The position numbers were made by a program. From Carcharhinus amblyrhynchos (Eukaryota), in contig OZ336890.1 in NCBI GenBank assembly GCA_965287045.1, positions 17,980,001 to 18,044,000 on the forward strand: 64,000 nt of DNA. The letters are read 5' to 3'. This document shows positions 12,001-18,000 of the stretch, piece by piece. Numbering within the stretch: the stretch's first letter is position 1; every line of letters begins with the position of its first letter.

Positions 12001-15000
12001 TTGTCTAGAAATGTAACACGGAAAGCGGAGTGGACTGTCGCTGTTTTTAATCTCTCTCCTGCTATTCTTGCTGCTGTCAATGAGAATCTAAAGACTGAAC
12101 ATTGTAATGAGTATCCGTTAGCCGGTTTGGGAATAACCATAATTCGTAATCAACCCCTCTCTGGGGGACTGCAAGTTATGCTTTCAAAAAATATAAAGTG
12201 GACATTACCTTTGTTTAGGTTTAGGCTCCTGAGGATCTGTCAAGTCCATGGATATAACATATGCAATCCGAAAAAGGCTGTGGATGAAACCTATTGTTTT
12301 TCTTAAAAATCCCATTGCGACCCTTCTCCAGAACATGGTTTAAAAAAAAAGACTAATCTTTTCCAGCCTGGAAGTCAACCCGCCACCTTTTGAAAGGGTA
12401 GTTCCTTTAACAAGAAAGTGAATCGAGATGGAAAACGGTTTTAAGAGTGAGAGCGTTTCACTTTGTGTGTCCCACATGTGGGCCAGTGGTTCTCTGCACA
12501 AGAGTGTTTTACAGCGGAAAGTGCAACATGAGGGAACCAGATCCGCAAACAAGTTCAAACTCAAGCCGGCAAGAAGGTGAGGAGAGAGGATAGCTTGACC
12601 TGAGGCAGGTTGTGTATTTAATATATTGACTGTTGTTGCTGGGGGAAGGGGGTGGTGGTCAAAACTTTCAACAGAGGAGCCTCTGACAGCAGAAGTAACA
12701 GTGAGTAATTTTCTAATGACCACTTCTGACAGTAACTACATTGAATTCCTTACTCTTAACTCTCTATCCTCGATGTAATCGAACTTCAAGAACGAGGCCC
12801 TAAAACTGTTGCAAAACTTGATTCAAATATACTCCCCTCCGCAAAGAAAGGCGGAAGGGAGTGTGTTTGAACCTTTGTTAAGATTTGGGATCCAGTGACA
12901 GTCTAATGTGATTTATACAAAAAAGAATTTTGTGGCCTAGGGAAAAAAAAGCAGGCCCAATTTCAGACTGTGACCCCAGTTAGTGGGAGCCTCGAAGGGA
13001 TTTGCAAAGCAGATTAGACCCAGGTTGAATGACAGTGCTTCATATAACTTTCTGAGAATTCACCCGGGGGGCTGCAGGGAGCGTGGGGAGGGGTGGGGGG
13101 GGCACTCACCCCCATCCATCTACAGATGTCATATTTATTTTCAAATGATGAACTTTTGCCAAAGGGTAAAGTGTTAAATTAGGCGTGAAGTGTGATTGAT
13201 GAGGGAAGGCGAACACTTTCACAAATTCCAGGGATATCTTTTGACAGAATCACCAGCGAAAAAGCAGTCAGGGGGCTGGGGGTAGAGAGTGGAGGTGGGG
13301 GGTTAGGCAGCCGGAGTTGTCTGTTTAAGGACATAGCTGGAATAGCTTCAATCAGGCTGTGTTCTTGCTTGCGAATTTTATTTGAAAGCTGTTTTTTTAA
13401 TAAAAACGTTTACTAAAAATCGGGGAGGAAATCGTCCCCCTTTTTTTATCTAATTCAAATTCGAGAAGAAATGGCAAGATGTTTTCCAATGCTTATTGGA
13501 AATCGCCTGTATCAGTCTCAGGGCAAATGCTGTCTTCTCCGCCAAGCTAACATCATTCTTATCCCTGCAACCTTCCCCCAGATCCGCACTTCAGCCCAAC
13601 TTTTTTTTATTTGACTGATATTAGATAATAAATAGCCCAGTGATCTGGATATTTGAAAAGGTTGGGATTTACTGAGCAAGCTGAAGGGTTGACAGCTAAA
13701 TCTGCAGTGTTCAAACACAGGCTGGAAGTTTATGGCAAACAAGTTGTTCTGTAACACTAGCAAGAAGGGATTCAGTGAAACAAGCCGTGGCGAATGCTCC
13801 AAAAAGTTCTCTGGAGATTGAGTGATGGAATTTGTAATTAGCTGCTGTAGTGGGCGCTGTGCTTTTTTTTATGATGGCCACTGACATAGTAATTTAATAC
13901 CAGGAAAGTTGGAAAGTGTTTTGAAGGGAGAGAGTGATTATGGAAAGCAGAGTTCACCGATCTGGGGCACTGAGCAGATGGGGATGTGGAAGCGGCTGGA
14001 AGTGACTTACAGAAACGGCCCAGCGAGCAGCAGCTGATAAGGATGGCGAGGAGTGCGAGTGGCCCATTCAGCTGCTGAAAGCTCCAGCTTTCGGGGTCGG
14101 GTGGGAGAACACCTCCAGAGGGCTCGGATGCCTTAAATCCCCGCCTGGGAATTTAACCCCCGGCAGCAGCAGCAGCAGCAATAAGGATGAGCCACCTTCC
14201 AGCTGAAGGGAACGTGTCTGCCTCCCCAGTGGATGCTGGGTTTAATTTGGGGGCTGCAGCCAACAGATCCGGGGGGCTGTGGGCGACCAACGACACCCAG
14301 GACTTTGAGGATGGGGCGGCCTCCAGTATATACGACGTCCTGATCCCCAGCCTGTACTGCCTGGTGTGTGTGCTGGGGCTGGGCGGCAATTCCTTGGTCA
14401 TCTTCAGCATCGTGCACCAGGCCAGGGCCAGGAGCGTGGCCAACATTTACATCCTCAACCTGGCCCTGGCGGATGGCCTCTTCATGCTGGGACTTCCTTT
14501 CCTCGCCATGCAGATCGCCCTCCGCCGCTGGCCCTTTGGAGGATTCATGTGCAGGTTGGTTATGATCTTGGATGGCATCAACCAGTTCACCAGTGTCTTC
14601 TGTATCACCGTGATGAGCATCGACAGGTACCTGGCTGTGGTGCACCCAGTCAGATCTTCCAGGTGGCGCAGCCCCAGGCTGGCAAAGAGAGTGAGTGCCA
14701 TCCTCTGGGTGATCTCCTTCATCCCTGTCATCCCCATGGCCATTTACTCAGGCGTGGATGGTGCTTCAGATGTCTGTACTTTAATCTGGCCAGAGCCTGT
14801 CTTTCTCTGGTCCACCGCCTTCATCATCTACACTTTTGTGCTGGGCTTCGCCCTGCCTTTTGCCATCATCTCCCTGTGCCACATTGTGCTGCTGCTGAGG
14901 ATAAAGAGTGCCCTCCTCTCCCCCCACAGCAGCCAGTCCCACAGCTCCGAGAGGAAAGTCACCACCATGGTGGTGGCCATCGTGCTGGCTTTCGCTACCT

Positions 15001-18000
15001 GCTGGCTGCCTTTCTACACCATCAACATCTGTGCCCTCTTCCAACCCATTCCAGAGAGCTTCACTGTCAGGAGATTCTTCGAGTTCATGGTGGTCCTCTC
15101 CTACTTCAACAGCTGCGCCAACCCCATTCTCTACATCTGCCTGTCAGACACTTGCTGGAGAAGCTGCCAGATGTTGCTGTGCCCCAGGTCGGTGCTGAGG
15201 AAGAAGGCCCTGGGGGAGAGGAGGCTGGAGGAGCATCAGATGCAAGGTCTGACCGAGTCCCAGCTCACTGCCTCTGCTGCGGAGCTAGAGAGTGTGTTCA
15301 GATAATGCCACCTTCTCCTGGAGGCAACCTATCCTCTCCTGCAGGAAGCCCAACCACTCCTGCCCACACATTCCTGCCCACCCTCTCTGGAATGAAGCCC
15401 ACCCCCTCCTACAGGAAGCCCACCCTCCCCAAGCCCACCTTCTCCGGAATGAAGCCCACCCTCTCCTGCCCACTCTTTCCCGTAGGGAGCCCACCCTCTC
15501 ATGCCTACCCTCTCCTGTAAGGAGCCCACTCCTGTCTACCCTCTCATGCCCACCCTCTTTAGAAGGAAGCCCACCCTCCCCAGCCCACCCCCTCCTGCCT
15601 ATCCTTTCCAGCCCATCCTCTTTTGAAGGAAGCCCACCCTCTCCAGGAGGCAGTTGCTCCAGACCGATGGATGTTCGAGAAATGGATTTTCAGTCTCTGG
15701 GACCTTTCAGTGATTTTATGCCATGAGCTGCGGAGCCATCGCCTGTCTAATACAAACTTTGGGTCGAATTGGTTCGACAACAACATTCACTGGGCATTCT
15801 CTCTATAAACTGTTGTTTCCCCCCCCCCAACCCCGCAGTAGAAAGGTGTTAAATGTTAAACGAATCGAAACAGTTTATATTCTTGAGCTAATCTGGGGCA
15901 AGATTCAAGCAGCGACTGAACAACTTGGTGCATCAACAATCGGTTGATGTTGGAGCTAGTCACAGTGTGTGTCTGTAATAATACCACAGGATGTAGGTTA
16001 CAGCAATTGAAAGATTGCAGGTGACGAGGGGAGAGTTGGTTATATCGCGCCTTGTTAATCTCGCTCACAAGACTGCAATGTGATTCAGGTACAGTGAATT
16101 GTTTTGTTCGGTGTCGGTTGAAGTGTTTTAAAACCATTATTTGCAGGGTAAAGTTCGGCGCAGTGAAAATACAGATTCACAACAGTCCGAATGAGGGAAG
16201 TGGCGGATTCTGGACAACTCTTCACTGGAGTCATGATCTGTGAAAGGGTTAAATCTTGAACTTGTATCAGTCCAAGCTATTTACTGGCGCGGTGCATGCG
16301 GGTTGGGGGGGGGGGGGGGAGTGTGGATTTATAAGTATTCGTGGCTTTTTCTCCACTCTGTGCGTTGACTCACAGTTGAGCCGGTGGCAATGTAACGCTG
16401 CAGCTATTCCATCTCCCCCCTGTCTGTCCCTGGTCAGGTGAATTCCTGTTGGAAATTTACTATAAAGCTCGAATTCTGTGAATATACATTAAGCAAGCCT
16501 TGTAAACTTCTCTATAAACATTAAACAACGTTCATTGTATAAAGCTGCACTTTGTTCCCGCATTTTCATTCTCCAATTTTAACAATTATCACATCTTTTG
16601 CAAACACACTCTCTGCCCATTCATTGTACCAGCCAAACTTTGCTCTGTCTCTCTCTCTCCAACTAGGGAAAGCACGAATCCATTTCGAAATACGGAGTTG
16701 GTTCATGCTGCCACAGTGCAGGAGCGAAGCTTTGGGCGAAATTTCTTATCCTGCCCGTATCATTAATAATGATAGGATCATAGAAATTTTACAGTACAGA
16801 AAGAGGCCATTCGGCCCATCGAATCTGCACCGACTACAATCCCACCCAAGCCCTACCCCTAAATATTTACCCACTAATCCACACATCAGGACAATTTTAG
16901 CTTAGCCAATCAACCTAACCCACATCATTGAACTGTGGAAGGAAACCCACGCAGACACGAGGAGAATGTACAAACTCCACTCAGACAGTGACCCAAGCCA
17001 GGAAGCGAACCCAGGTCCCTGGAACCGTGAAGCAGCAGTGCTAACCACTGTGCTACCGTGCCCGCCTGTAACAACGCTCCTCCAAAACCTCACACACTTC
17101 CAACAACCATTTTCCAAAAGCTCACACACTTTCCCTGCCGCGCCAGTTGAGAAATCTGCTCCATGAACGACTTTTGTTTGACATCGCACTATTTTTAGAA
17201 AATCCTAGATCATCTCCCCGGACAGACAGAACCCACCCAGAGAGGGAATTCTGTGCTCCGACGAGCGTGACACTCCTTTATTCACGACAAGGTTATTCGC
17301 ACAAGTAGATGTAACCGTCCCCATGAGTAAATTGCATCCCATTGTCGCCTGCTTTTCAGTGCTGTGAATGTTATCCGAGTGAACAGGGAGTGGAGGCCCT
17401 GGAGGATCAGCACCCAAGCTGCTAAACTACATTTCACCCGTCCCCTGCACCTCATCGATATCATAACAGCGGTGTAAGGTTGTGTAAAAACATTCTGTTG
17501 AAACATAGTTCCTGCCAATGGACAGTCAGAACTCAAAAGTGGAATAAATATTGGGCTTTGGGCCTGTTTTGAAGGATCTGAGTTTGGGCTCATCAGATTA
17601 ATTCAGAAAATTAAAACAATTTGAACTTGTTTAAATTATCGATTCCTTAAGTAAAATGGTAGTGCACATTCATAAAGAAGAAGTAAGTCTACTGGTGTAA
17701 TCTCATTTCATCTGTAGGTTGATATATTATGTTCCACTTGCTTAGACAATGATTAGTTTTCTTATCCCTAGCTCTTCCATCAACCTCCTAATGTCAAACT
17801 CAGGACAATAATCAGCCTGATCTGTGTAATTGTCTCTGATTGACTGGCTATATTGTCTTCAACGTTGTCCCAAAATATTCCGAGTAGGTGATGATTGGCT
17901 TTTCTATTAGATTGAATTCATGATCTAACGACAAGAGAACACACAGCAGGCATCTAATCAAGTTCAATCTGAAATACGGGAAGGGTGTGGAGCCGGATTC

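What the first reader, a model, noticed from the sequence alone, without database searches (positions are those of the whole stretch)
14187..15305. Extra, intact, highly diverged somatostatin receptor in tandem with SSTR2
Seen: a complete 372-aa class A GPCR with SSTR2/3/5-type signatures ([25 protein letters not shown]) between SLC39A11 and SSTR2, in the same orientation as SSTR2. Its termini and loops do not align with SSTR2, so the duplication is old. Established: mammals have only SSTR2 next to SLC39A11, and the usual vertebrate repertoire is SSTR1-6. My recollection, which needs verifying, is that an extra SSTR2-linked receptor ('SSTRX') was reported in coelacanth. Inference: this may be a seventh ancient jawed-vertebrate SSTR subtype, formed by local duplication before the shark/bony-fish split and lost in mammals.
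Basis: partly seen in the sequence, partly recalled or inferred. Interest (0 to 1): 0.8.

Follow-up and report, generated by a model that had tools for sequence, protein, structure and literature searches.

The report
Extra diverged somatostatin receptor beside SSTR2
An intact gene for a second, strongly diverged somatostatin-type receptor sits just upstream of the ordinary SSTR2 gene; similar extra copies have been reported in coelacanth, gar and teleosts, so it is a little-studied but not unknown kind of gene.

Summary
Window 14187-15305 (+) is an intact 372-codon, single-exon class A GPCR gene, here called X. It lies 30.7 kb upstream of a clear SSTR2 orthologue at 44861-45988 and in the same orientation.

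X belongs to the SSTR2/3/5 group but is an orthologue of none of them. Its phmmer scores are 344 bits to the window's own SSTR2 and 333, 329 and 319 to human SSTR2, SSTR5 and SSTR3. The neighbouring gene scores 577 to human SSTR2.

X keeps all 7 somatostatin-pocket residues and all 3 SSTR2/3/5 marker residues. It has His for the Tyr5.58 activation switch, a de-basified third intracellular loop and no SSTR2-type C-terminus.

The duplication is old. Four-fold sites are near saturation and the flanks share no homology.

The kind is already in print: coelacanth SSTRX, gar/teleost sstr2-like and an "SSTR7" table entry. No tree could be built, and the window's taxon was not established. The claim of a seventh subtype older than the shark/bony-fish split is therefore open, not shown.

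The parts
14187..15305 (+). Single-exon coding sequence of the extra somatostatin-receptor-like GPCR (X, 372 aa; stop codon included)
   Evidence: ORF. Pfam 7tm_1 at 2.8e-63 over the full profile. Best PDB matches are SSTR2, SSTR5 and SSTR3. The AF2 model has seven helices plus helix 8. Foldseek ranks 1-23 are all SSTR1-5 structures.
44861..45988 (+). SSTR2 orthologue (375 aa, ends in ...LQTSI), the tandem partner 30.7 kb downstream
   Evidence: 577 bits to human SSTR2, against 419 to SSTR5 and 367 to SSTR3. 48% identity to X over 346 aa.
2471..2578 (-). Candidate first coding exon of SLC39A11 (36 codons, ATG to CAG|GTCAGT), divergent from X and 11.6 kb from its ATG
   Evidence: Seen in an ORF listing and in the sequence. 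Its identity rests on my recollection of the ZIP11 N-terminus. Pfam gave no match, PDB gave chance hits only, and the Atlas gave only a weak Zip lead at 0.80.
15315..15646 (.). Minisatellite (units of 14, 21, 35 and 63 bp, GCCCACCCTCTC-type) starting 10 bp after the stop codon of X, presumably in its 3' UTR
   Evidence: Tandem Repeats Finder, 6 overlapping rows with scores 50-181.
14164..14180 (+). Short CAG run ending 6 bp before the ATG of X. The ATG has A at position -3.
   Evidence: Read directly from the sequence.

Best explanation
X is an intact, selectively maintained, intronless gene for a class A peptide GPCR of the somatostatin-receptor family, in the SSTR2/3/5 (type-1) group. It arose by an old local duplication at the SSTR2 locus and has since evolved faster than SSTR2.

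By position it is the counterpart of coelacanth SSTRX and of the gar/teleost 'sstr2-like' gene: upstream of SSTR2, in the same orientation, on the SLC39A11 side.

Inferred mechanism. X binds somatostatin-family cyclic peptides through the same Trp-Lys pocket as SSTR2 and signals through Gi/o. Its activation switch (Tyr5.58 to His), third intracellular loop, helix 8 and C-terminus have changed, so its efficacy, coupling strength, desensitisation or trafficking probably differ from those of SSTR2.

Shown here: the gene, its family and group, pocket conservation, the old age of the duplication and the faster rate. Inferred: the ligand, the G protein, expression, and orthology to SSTRX and sstr2-like.
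For: Family. phmmer against PDB sequences gives SSTR2 333 bits, SSTR5 329, SSTR3 319, SSTR1 278, SSTR4 268 and mu-opioid 216. Foldseek ranks 1-23 are all SSTR structures, with TM-score 0.81-0.85 normalised to the target.

Group. All 3 residues that separate SSTR2/3/5 from SSTR1/4 are in the type-1 state: Q2.63, N6.55 and F7.35 (Bo et al. 2022, PMC9122944, passages read).

Pocket. All 7 residues named there as contacting the peptide beta-turn are identical in X: Q109, D129, Q133, F212, F276, N280 and Y306. The DRY, CWLP and NPILY motifs, the TM3-ECL2 cysteine pair and three N-terminal glycosylation sequons are also present.

Gi interface. Of the 13 SSTR2 residues listed as contacting Gi, 8 are identical and 2 are conservative changes.

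Constraint.
- The frame is open in 0 of 2000 and 1 of 2000 shuffles.
- The 7TM core has one 2-residue indel relative to SSTR2.
- Identity is 57% in the helices and 26% elsewhere.
- GC3 is 0.78, against flanking GC of 0.45-0.48.
- Nei-Gojobori pN is 0.358 and pS 0.585 over 366 codons, giving a ratio of 0.43.

Age. Four-fold sites are near saturation (30 of 78 differ; shuffle mean 38.0; 60 of 5000 shuffles are as low). No tract of high synonymous identity is seen. The flanks share no homology.

Faster rate. X scores 82 bits lower than the neighbouring SSTR2 against both outgroups, SSTR1 (278 vs 360) and SSTR4 (268 vs 350).

Link to SSTR2. The best score is to the window's own SSTR2 (343.9 bits). 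Alignments run into the C-tail only with SSTR2 (query 35-361), not with SSTR5 (47-335) or SSTR3 (44-333). The tail similarity is reached by 34 of 5000 shuffles.

Positional counterparts in print.
Against: No orthologue of X could be fetched. Monophyly with SSTRX and sstr2-like, purifying selection within the lineage and expression are all untested.

In the 7TM core, X is as similar to human SSTR5 (317.3 bits) as to SSTR2 (317.9). Its Foldseek identity is slightly higher to SSTR5 (53-54%) than to SSTR2 (50-51%). Its ECL2 motif WPEPVFLW matches human SSTR5 (WPEPVGLW), not SSTR2. The link to SSTR2 is therefore weak.

Tyr5.58 is replaced by His. ICL3 holds 4 basic residues against 10 in SSTR2. R155 and N318 of the Gi interface are changed. 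Coupling could therefore be weak or different.

The tilapia counterpart is described as having 6 TM segments and as possibly decaying.

The pairwise dN/dS of 0.43 mixes two lineages and is biased by GC3.

The AF2 model has low confidence (pLDDT 56.1, pTM 0.55; alignment of 2 sequences).
Confidence: 0.75

Rival explanations
1. X is a lineage-specific duplicate of SSTR2 that merely evolved fast. This is the reading Ocampo Daza et al. gave for coelacanth SSTRX. The extra genes of different fishes would then be independent duplications, not one old subtype.
For: The arrangement is tandem and co-oriented. The best score is to the window's own SSTR2 (343.9 bits). Tail homology is seen with SSTR2 only. 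A faster rate is demonstrated against the SSTR1/4 outgroups. The deficit of X relative to SSTR2 is similar toward SSTR5 (90 bits), SSTR1 (82) and SSTR4 (82), as expected if a long X branch explains the equal distances.
Against: Four-fold sites are near saturation and the flanks share no homology. X is less similar to SSTR2 (333-344 bits) than SSTR5 and SSTR3 are (419, 367). A gene in the same position is reported in coelacanth, gar and teleosts, which is more simply explained by one old duplication.
Confidence: 0.12
2. X is a recently disabled or never-expressed relic: a pseudogene with no visible lesion, or a receptor that no longer signals.
For: The Tyr5.58 microswitch is replaced by His, ICL3 has lost most basic residues, and there is no SSTR2-type C-terminal end. 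The tilapia counterpart is said to have 6 TM segments and perhaps to be on the way to pseudogenisation. Expression was not testable here.
Against: There is no stop or frameshift in 372 codons. The pocket residues and the DRY, CWLP and NPxxY motifs are intact. GC3 of 0.78 is far above the flanking GC. Conservation is concentrated in the helices. Long-term neutral decay at this level of divergence would have broken the frame.
Confidence: 0.06
3. X is a displaced orthologue of SSTR5 or SSTR3 (or the lost fourth 2R copy of the SSTR2/3/5 set) that was moved next to SSTR2 by rearrangement.
For: Core scores to SSTR5 and SSTR2 are equal (317.3 vs 317.9). The ECL2 motif WPEPV.LW, the GLGGN, CRLVM and FTSVFC stretches, and the TM6 pattern are shared with human SSTR5 in the printed alignment. 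Foldseek identity is highest to SSTR5 (53-54%).
Against: X scores lower to human SSTR5 and SSTR3 (329, 319) than the paralogous SSTR2 does (419, 367). An orthologue should score higher. The tandem, co-oriented position is repeated in other fishes. The C-tail resembles SSTR2 only.
Confidence: 0.05

Closest known systems
SSTR2 (human structures such as 7wic and 7xat; the window's own orthologue at 44861-45988)
   Same: All 7 pocket residues and the DRY, CWLP and NPILY motifs are shared. The coding sequence is single-exon. A C-tail stretch is recognisable (TESQLT in X, TETQRT in SSTR2). Core identity is 50-53%.
   Different: X scores 333-344 bits where a true orthologue scores 577. X has His at 5.58 and Ser at 5.35. 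ICL3 has 4 basic residues against 10. Helix 8 is rich in Cys. X ends in SVFR rather than QTSI. The N-terminus is unrelated.
SSTR5 (human, 8x8l)
   Same: The 7TM core score equals that for SSTR2 (317.3 bits). The ECL2 motif WPEPV.LW and several TM1, TM3 and TM6 stretches are shared. Identity is 53-54%.
   Different: X is not an orthologue: the SSTR2 neighbour scores higher to SSTR5 (419) than X does (329). The alignment stops at helix 8.
Coelacanth SSTRX (Ocampo Daza et al. 2012, PMC3560075)
   Same: It is an SSTR2-like seventh gene on the same scaffold as SSTR2, in the same orientation and a few tens of kb away. It has a long branch and sits at the base of the SSTR2 cluster.
   Different: The sequences could not be compared here. 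The authors called it lineage-specific. The rounded positions (3.45 and 3.47 Mb) imply a spacing of 10-30 kb, against 30.7 kb here.
Spotted gar / teleost 'sstr2-like' (PMC11224465)
   Same: It is the closest gene to sstr2 and is listed next to slc39a1[1] in the sstr2 gene block. It is intronless and ascribed to a local duplication before the teleost genome duplication.
   Different: The tilapia copy is 339 aa with 6 predicted TM segments. X has 372 aa and a complete 7TM profile match. The sequences were not compared.
'SSTR7' (Table 1 of Furlong and Seong 2017, PMC5207463, after Yun et al. 2015)
   Same: It is listed as a third pre-2R somatostatin-receptor progenitor beside SSTR1/4/6 and SSTR2/3/5.
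   Different: The table gives no species, locus or sequence. Yun et al. 2015 is not held. Whether SSTR7 is the SSTR2-linked gene is therefore my guess. A different use of 'SSTR7' for a teleost appears in PMC9576932.

Membership tests
Class A (rhodopsin-like) GPCR | Full-length 7tm_1 profile match and seven TM helices | tested here: met
   PF00001 at E = 2.8e-63, profile positions 1-260 of 260. The AF2 model shows 7 helices plus helix 8, at low confidence (pLDDT 56).
Class A (rhodopsin-like) GPCR | Microswitches: D2.50, DRY, CWxP, NPxxY, Y5.58 and the TM3-ECL2 disulfide | tested here: inconclusive
   D96, D146-R147-Y148, C272-W273-L274-P275, N312-P313-I314-L315-Y316 and the C122/C197 pair are present. 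Position 5.58 is His232, not Tyr.
Somatostatin receptor family | Closer to SSTRs than to the nearest other family (opioid receptors) | tested here: met
   268-333 bits to SSTR1-5, against 216 or less to opioid receptors. Foldseek ranks 1-23 are all SSTRs.
Somatostatin receptor family | TM7 signature [12 protein letters not shown] (label recalled; the motif is visible in SSTR2 and SSTR5 in the alignments) | tested here: met
   X has [11 protein letters not shown], 10 of 11 positions, with A changed to F at the second.
Somatostatin receptor family | Residues that hold the Trp-Lys beta-turn of somatostatin (Q2.63, D3.32, Q3.36, F5.38, F6.51, N6.55, Y7.43) | tested here: met
   7 of 7 are identical.
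Somatostatin receptor family | Binds somatostatin and inhibits adenylyl cyclase through Gi/o | not testable with these tools
   Needs expression and a ligand assay. Of 13 listed Gi-contact residues, 8 are identical, 2 conservative and 3 changed.
Type-1 group (SSTR2/3/5) | Q2.63, N6.55 and F7.35, as opposed to the SSTR1/4 states | tested here: met
   3 of 3: Q109, N280 and F298. Scores are 319-333 bits to SSTR2/3/5 and 268-278 to SSTR1/4.
SSTR2 orthologue | Scores far higher to SSTR2 than to SSTR3/5, and has an SSTR2-type C-terminus ending in QTSI | tested here: not met
   333 (SSTR2) vs 329 (SSTR5) vs 319 (SSTR3) bits, whereas the neighbour scores 577 vs 419 vs 367. X ends in SVFR and the neighbour in LQTSI.
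SSTR5 or SSTR3 orthologue | Scores higher to that subtype than a paralogue does | tested here: not met
   X scores 329 and 319 to human SSTR5 and SSTR3. The paralogous SSTR2 neighbour scores 419 and 367.
SSTR2-linked extra receptor (SSTRX / sstr2-like / possibly SSTR7) | Adjacent to SSTR2, in the same orientation, on the SLC39A11 side | tested here: met
   30.7 kb upstream of SSTR2, both on the + strand. The SLC39A11 exon is only a lead. Positions in print.
SSTR2-linked extra receptor (SSTRX / sstr2-like / possibly SSTR7) | Forms one clade with coelacanth SSTRX and gar/teleost sstr2-like | not testable with these tools
   No vertebrate sequence collection was open, and PDB sequences could not be taken into an alignment.
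SSTR2-linked extra receptor (SSTRX / sstr2-like / possibly SSTR7) | Long branch (raised rate) relative to SSTR2 | tested here: met
   82 bits lower than the neighbour against both SSTR1 and SSTR4.

The most novel reading that the evidence does not exclude
X, coelacanth SSTRX and the gar/teleost sstr2-like gene are orthologues of one seventh somatostatin-receptor lineage. It was already present in the jawed-vertebrate ancestor, perhaps even before the two genome doublings, as the 'SSTR7' table entry implies. It was kept beside SSTR2 in fishes and lost in tetrapods. With an unchanged peptide pocket but a rebuilt activation switch (Y5.58H) and intracellular face, it would be a somatostatin-family receptor with its own signalling behaviour, possibly paired with one of the extra somatostatin genes that fishes retain.
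Probability: 0.35. Interest if true: 0.6.

Novelty: new member of a known kind. Interest (0 to 1): 0.4.

Why it matters
The standard account gives jawed vertebrates six ancestral somatostatin receptors (the 2018 review PMC5818035, and the 2019 catshark preprint, both say six).

An extra gene fixed beside SSTR2 has been noted three times. It has never been treated as one lineage and, in the papers I could search, never been tested for ligand or signalling. If the copies are orthologous, the ancestral count becomes seven and tetrapods lost one more receptor than thought.

X is a convenient natural experiment. The peptide pocket is unchanged, while the Tyr5.58 switch, ICL3, helix 8 and tail are altered. 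If instead the copies are independent duplicates or decaying genes, this is ordinary gene turnover.

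Tried and rejected
- Six-frame Pfam scan of the upstream 10 kb: the tool does not accept translations with stops. I listed ORFs by script instead.
- Confirming the SLC39A11 exon: Pfam gave 0 families, PDB gave 5 chance matches with E of 0.28 or more, and the Atlas gave no named cluster above 0.80.
- Atlas search with X: the nearest clusters were 'Somatostatin receptor type 5-like' and similar at 0.98, with no alignment and no taxa below phylum. This did not help with subtype or orthology.
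- Taking PDB sequences into an alignment for a tree: the ids were not accepted, and I did not type them.
- Yun et al. 2015 is not held, by DOI or by PubMed id.
- Literature searches that found nothing on an SSTR2-linked extra receptor in cartilaginous fish: 0 papers; 0 papers. Ocampo Daza 2012 contains no occurrence of 'cartilaginous', 'elasmobranch' or 'Callorhinchus'.
- Rfam (0 matches) and ARAGORN (0 genes) gave nothing and no hint of the taxon.
- Placing X before or after the genome doublings from bit scores: the deficits of X relative to SSTR2 are 90 (SSTR5), 48 (SSTR3), 82 (SSTR1) and 82 (SSTR4) bits. Bit scores are not additive distances, and these numbers fit both a sister-of-SSTR2 and an outgroup position. 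I rejected this as a test.
- Gene conversion between the tandem copies: no tract of raised synonymous identity was found.
- A COG1 exon downstream of SSTR2: nothing recognisable among the 84 ORFs of 60 aa or more listed for 46-64 kb. The 278-aa ORF at 61925-62761 (-) has no Pfam match.

Full report
THE OBSERVATION

An ATG-to-stop ORF occupies exactly 14187..15305 on the + strand and encodes 372 aa (protein P0001; called X below). Pfam 7tm_1 covers the whole profile, positions 1-260 of 260, at E = 2.8e-63. The frame stays open in 0 of 2000 mononucleotide shuffles and in 1 of 2000 shuffles that preserve codon position. The alternative frame 14309..15520 is also open for 403 codons. Openness alone is therefore weak evidence in this GC3-rich stretch. 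What counts is that the frame encodes a complete receptor.

A second GPCR ORF at 44861..45988 (+, 375 aa, P0002) is a plain SSTR2 orthologue. It scores 577 bits to human SSTR2, 419 to SSTR5, 367 to SSTR3, 360 to SSTR1 and 350 to SSTR4. tblastn with both proteins finds only these two genes in the window.

I do not take the window for human. Its SSTR2 scores 577 bits to the human protein, where a self-match of this size gives about 830. It also carries a second SSTR gene beside SSTR2, which mammals lack to my recollection.

The run of N at 42236-42363 was left untouched.

THE FLANKS

An ORF listing of 1-14150 contains a 36-codon stretch at 2471-2578 (-). It runs from an ATG to a good donor site, CAG|GTCAGT. 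From memory it resembles the N-terminus of ZIP11 (SLC39A11). The tools did not confirm this: Pfam found nothing, PDB gave only chance hits, and the Atlas gave at best a cluster with Zip on 18% of members at score 0.80, which is a lead only. This exon was searched on its own.

If the exon is real, the order is SLC39A11 (-), X (+), SSTR2 (+). That matches the order slc39a1[1], sstr2-like, sstr2 given for gar and teleosts.

Nothing recognisable as a gene was seen among the 84 ORFs of 60 aa or more listed for 46-64 kb.

WHAT X IS

phmmer against all PDB sequences gives SSTR2 333 bits, SSTR5 329, SSTR3 319, SSTR1 278, SSTR4 268 and mu-opioid 216. With the 7TM core alone (residues 47-335) the scores are SSTR2 317.9, SSTR5 317.3, SSTR3 308.0, SSTR1 267.2 and SSTR4 261.1. 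Against the window's own SSTR2, X scores 343.9 bits, with 48% identity over 346 aa.

An AlphaFold2 model from the two-sequence alignment has low confidence (pLDDT 56.1, pTM 0.55). It still shows seven helices and helix 8. Foldseek against the PDB returns only SSTR1-5 structures at ranks 1-23. Identities are 50-51% to SSTR2, 50-53% to SSTR3, 53-54% to SSTR5, 42-43% to SSTR1 and 45-46% to SSTR4.

X is thus a member of the SSTR2/3/5 group and an orthologue of none of the three. The paralogous SSTR2 neighbour scores higher to human SSTR5 and SSTR3 (419, 367) than X does (329, 319).

HOW IT PROBABLY WORKS

Peptide pocket. Bo et al. 2022 (PMC9122944; abstract and passages read) name Q2.63, D3.32, Q3.36, F5.38, F6.51, N6.55 and Y7.43 as the residues that hold the Trp-Lys turn of somatostatin. 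They name Q2.63, N6.55 and F7.35 as the residues that separate SSTR2/3/5 from SSTR1/4. I read the mapping off the human SSTR2 alignment and checked it by script. X has all 7 of the first set and all 3 of the second: Q109, D129, Q133, F212, F276, N280, Y306 and F298. The DRY, CWLP and NPILY motifs, D2.50, the C122-C197 pair and three N-glycosylation sequons are present.

Gi interface. Of the 13 SSTR2 residues the paper lists as touching Gi, 8 are identical in X, 2 are conservative changes (I148V, V235I) and 3 are changed (R155S, Y228H, N318T). I infer that X binds somatostatin-family peptides in the SSTR2 manner and couples to Gi/o.

Differences. They are concentrated on the inside of the receptor.
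- His232 replaces the Tyr5.58 switch that human SSTR2, human SSTR5 and the neighbour all keep.
- The ICL3 segment has 4 Lys/Arg against 10 in the neighbour.
- Helix 8 reads SDTCWRSCQMLLC. X has 13 cysteines against 9 in the neighbour.
- The protein ends in SVFR rather than the QTSI of SSTR2.
- On the outside, position 5.35 is Ser instead of Tyr.

What these changes do is not known. Altered efficacy, desensitisation or trafficking is my inference.

IS IT UNDER CONSTRAINT, AND HOW OLD IS IT?

Constraint.
- Identity to SSTR2 is 134 of 235 in the helices and 36 of 137 elsewhere.
- The core holds one 2-residue indel.
- GC3 is 0.78 in X and 0.86 in SSTR2, against flanking GC of 0.45-0.48.
- Nei-Gojobori gives pN 0.358, pS 0.585 and dN/dS 0.43 over 366 codons. 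This pairwise figure mixes both lineages and is distorted by GC3 bias.

Age.
- At four-fold sites of identical residues, 30 of 78 differ. Shuffles within codon families give a mean of 38.0, and 60 of 5000 are as low as observed. Synonymous sites are therefore close to saturation, though not entirely there.
- No window shows a tract of raised synonymous identity.
- Nucleotide similarity (67.1% over 848 nt) is confined to the coding region.
- The flanks give no alignment at E up to 0.01.

The duplication is old, and a long period of neutral decay is excluded. A recent silent loss of function is not excluded.

WHERE IT BRANCHES

This could not be settled.

For a tie to SSTR2:
- The best score is to the window's own SSTR2.
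- Alignments reach into the C-tail only with SSTR2 (query 35-361), not with SSTR5 (47-335) or SSTR3 (44-333).
- The tail similarity (TESQLT in X, TETQRT in SSTR2) is reached by 34 of 5000 shuffles. The N-terminus shows none, with 2926 of 5000 shuffles reaching the observed score.

Against a tie to SSTR2:
- Core scores to SSTR2 and SSTR5 are equal.
- ECL2 reads WPEPVFLW, as in human SSTR5 (WPEPVGLW) and unlike SSTR2.

Rate. X is 82 bits further than SSTR2 from both outgroups, SSTR1 and SSTR4, so its branch is long. The corresponding deficits toward SSTR5 (90) and SSTR3 (48) fit either position. A proper tree needs sequences I could not reach.

WHAT IS IN PRINT

- Ocampo Daza et al. 2012 (PMC3560075; passages read) report six subtypes plus a coelacanth 'SSTRX'. 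It lies on the SSTR2 scaffold (3.47 vs 3.45 Mb), in the same orientation, basal in the SSTR2 cluster and on a long branch. They read it as lineage-specific. The paper contains no cartilaginous fish.
- The tilapia study PMC11224465 (passages read) describes an intronless 'sstr2-like' gene as the nearest gene to sstr2 in spotted gar, kept in one teleost paralogon. The tilapia copy has 339 aa and 6 TM segments. The authors ascribe it to a local duplication in an actinopterygian ancestor. Its supplementary tables were not seen.
- Table 1 of Furlong and Seong 2017 (PMC5207463; table and passages read) lists 'SSTR 7' as a third pre-2R progenitor, after Yun et al. 2015. That paper is not held. That SSTR7 is this gene is my guess.
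- The 2018 review PMC5818035 and the catshark preprint 10.1101/823187 still count six.
- Searches for the gene in cartilaginous fish found nothing.

TAXON

I could not establish the species. Rfam and ARAGORN gave nothing. The 30.7-kb spacing lies just outside the 10-30 kb implied by the rounded coelacanth coordinates, which is weak evidence that this is not that assembly. If the window is from gar or coelacanth, the gene is already described. If it is from a cartilaginous fish, it extends the gene's known range and dates it to the jawed-vertebrate ancestor, provided orthology holds.

VERDICT

X is a further member of a known but neglected kind of gene, with an intact peptide pocket and a remodelled intracellular face. 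Interest is moderate.

Noticed in passing
window 3790-4096, 5643-5986, 6219-6519, 8394-8702, 16774-17062, 21536-21837, 31805-32076, 34482-34723, 53056-53335, 55278-55580, 63232-63395 and others: An interspersed repeat of about 300 bp with up to 12 matching copies in the window (self-blast). Its translations recur in the ORF lists (for example ...NPGPW.CEAAVLTTV.PCHP). From memory it resembles a tRNA-derived SINE that is abundant in fish genomes, sharks among them. This was not tested, and ARAGORN found no tRNA-like gene.
   Followed up: partly
window 10177-10512 (-), 28956-29393 (+), 59834-60475 (+); also 25008-25667, 29290-30162, 60645-61115: Fragments of LINE-type reverse transcriptase. RVT_1 matches at E = 1.9e-12, 4.8e-14 and 1.3e-13. 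The neighbouring ORFs share C-terminal motifs but have no significant Pfam match.
   Followed up: partly
window 15315-15646: Minisatellite of GCCCACCCTCTC-type units (periods 14, 21, 35 and 63) beginning 10 bp after the stop codon of X. The first AATAAA on the + strand after the stop is at 17543.
   Followed up: no
window 39221-41254 and 42082-42562: Long CT-rich, low-complexity stretches that read as Pro/Ser/Leu-rich ORFs in several frames. CA-type microsatellites flank the 128-base N run at 42236-42363. The N run was left as it is.
   Followed up: no
window 14309-15520 (+), 14133-14747 (-), 44822-46009 (-): Long open frames overlap both receptor genes out of frame or antisense (403, 204 and 395 codons). 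This is a by-product of their high GC3 (0.78 and 0.86) and not a sign of further genes.
   Followed up: partly
window 61925-62764 (-): A 279-codon stop-to-stop ORF on the minus strand with no Pfam match at E up to 10. Its nature is unknown.
   Followed up: partly
whole window: AATAAA occurs 120 times on both strands, against 60.5 expected from shuffles; 0 of 100 shuffles reach 120. Poly-A-like tails of the many retroelement copies are a likely cause.
   Followed up: no
window 45755-45757 (codon 299 of the SSTR2 orthologue): The window's SSTR2 orthologue has Tyr at 7.35, where human SSTR2 and X have Phe. This position matters for octreotide and lanreotide selectivity in the human receptor.
   Followed up: no
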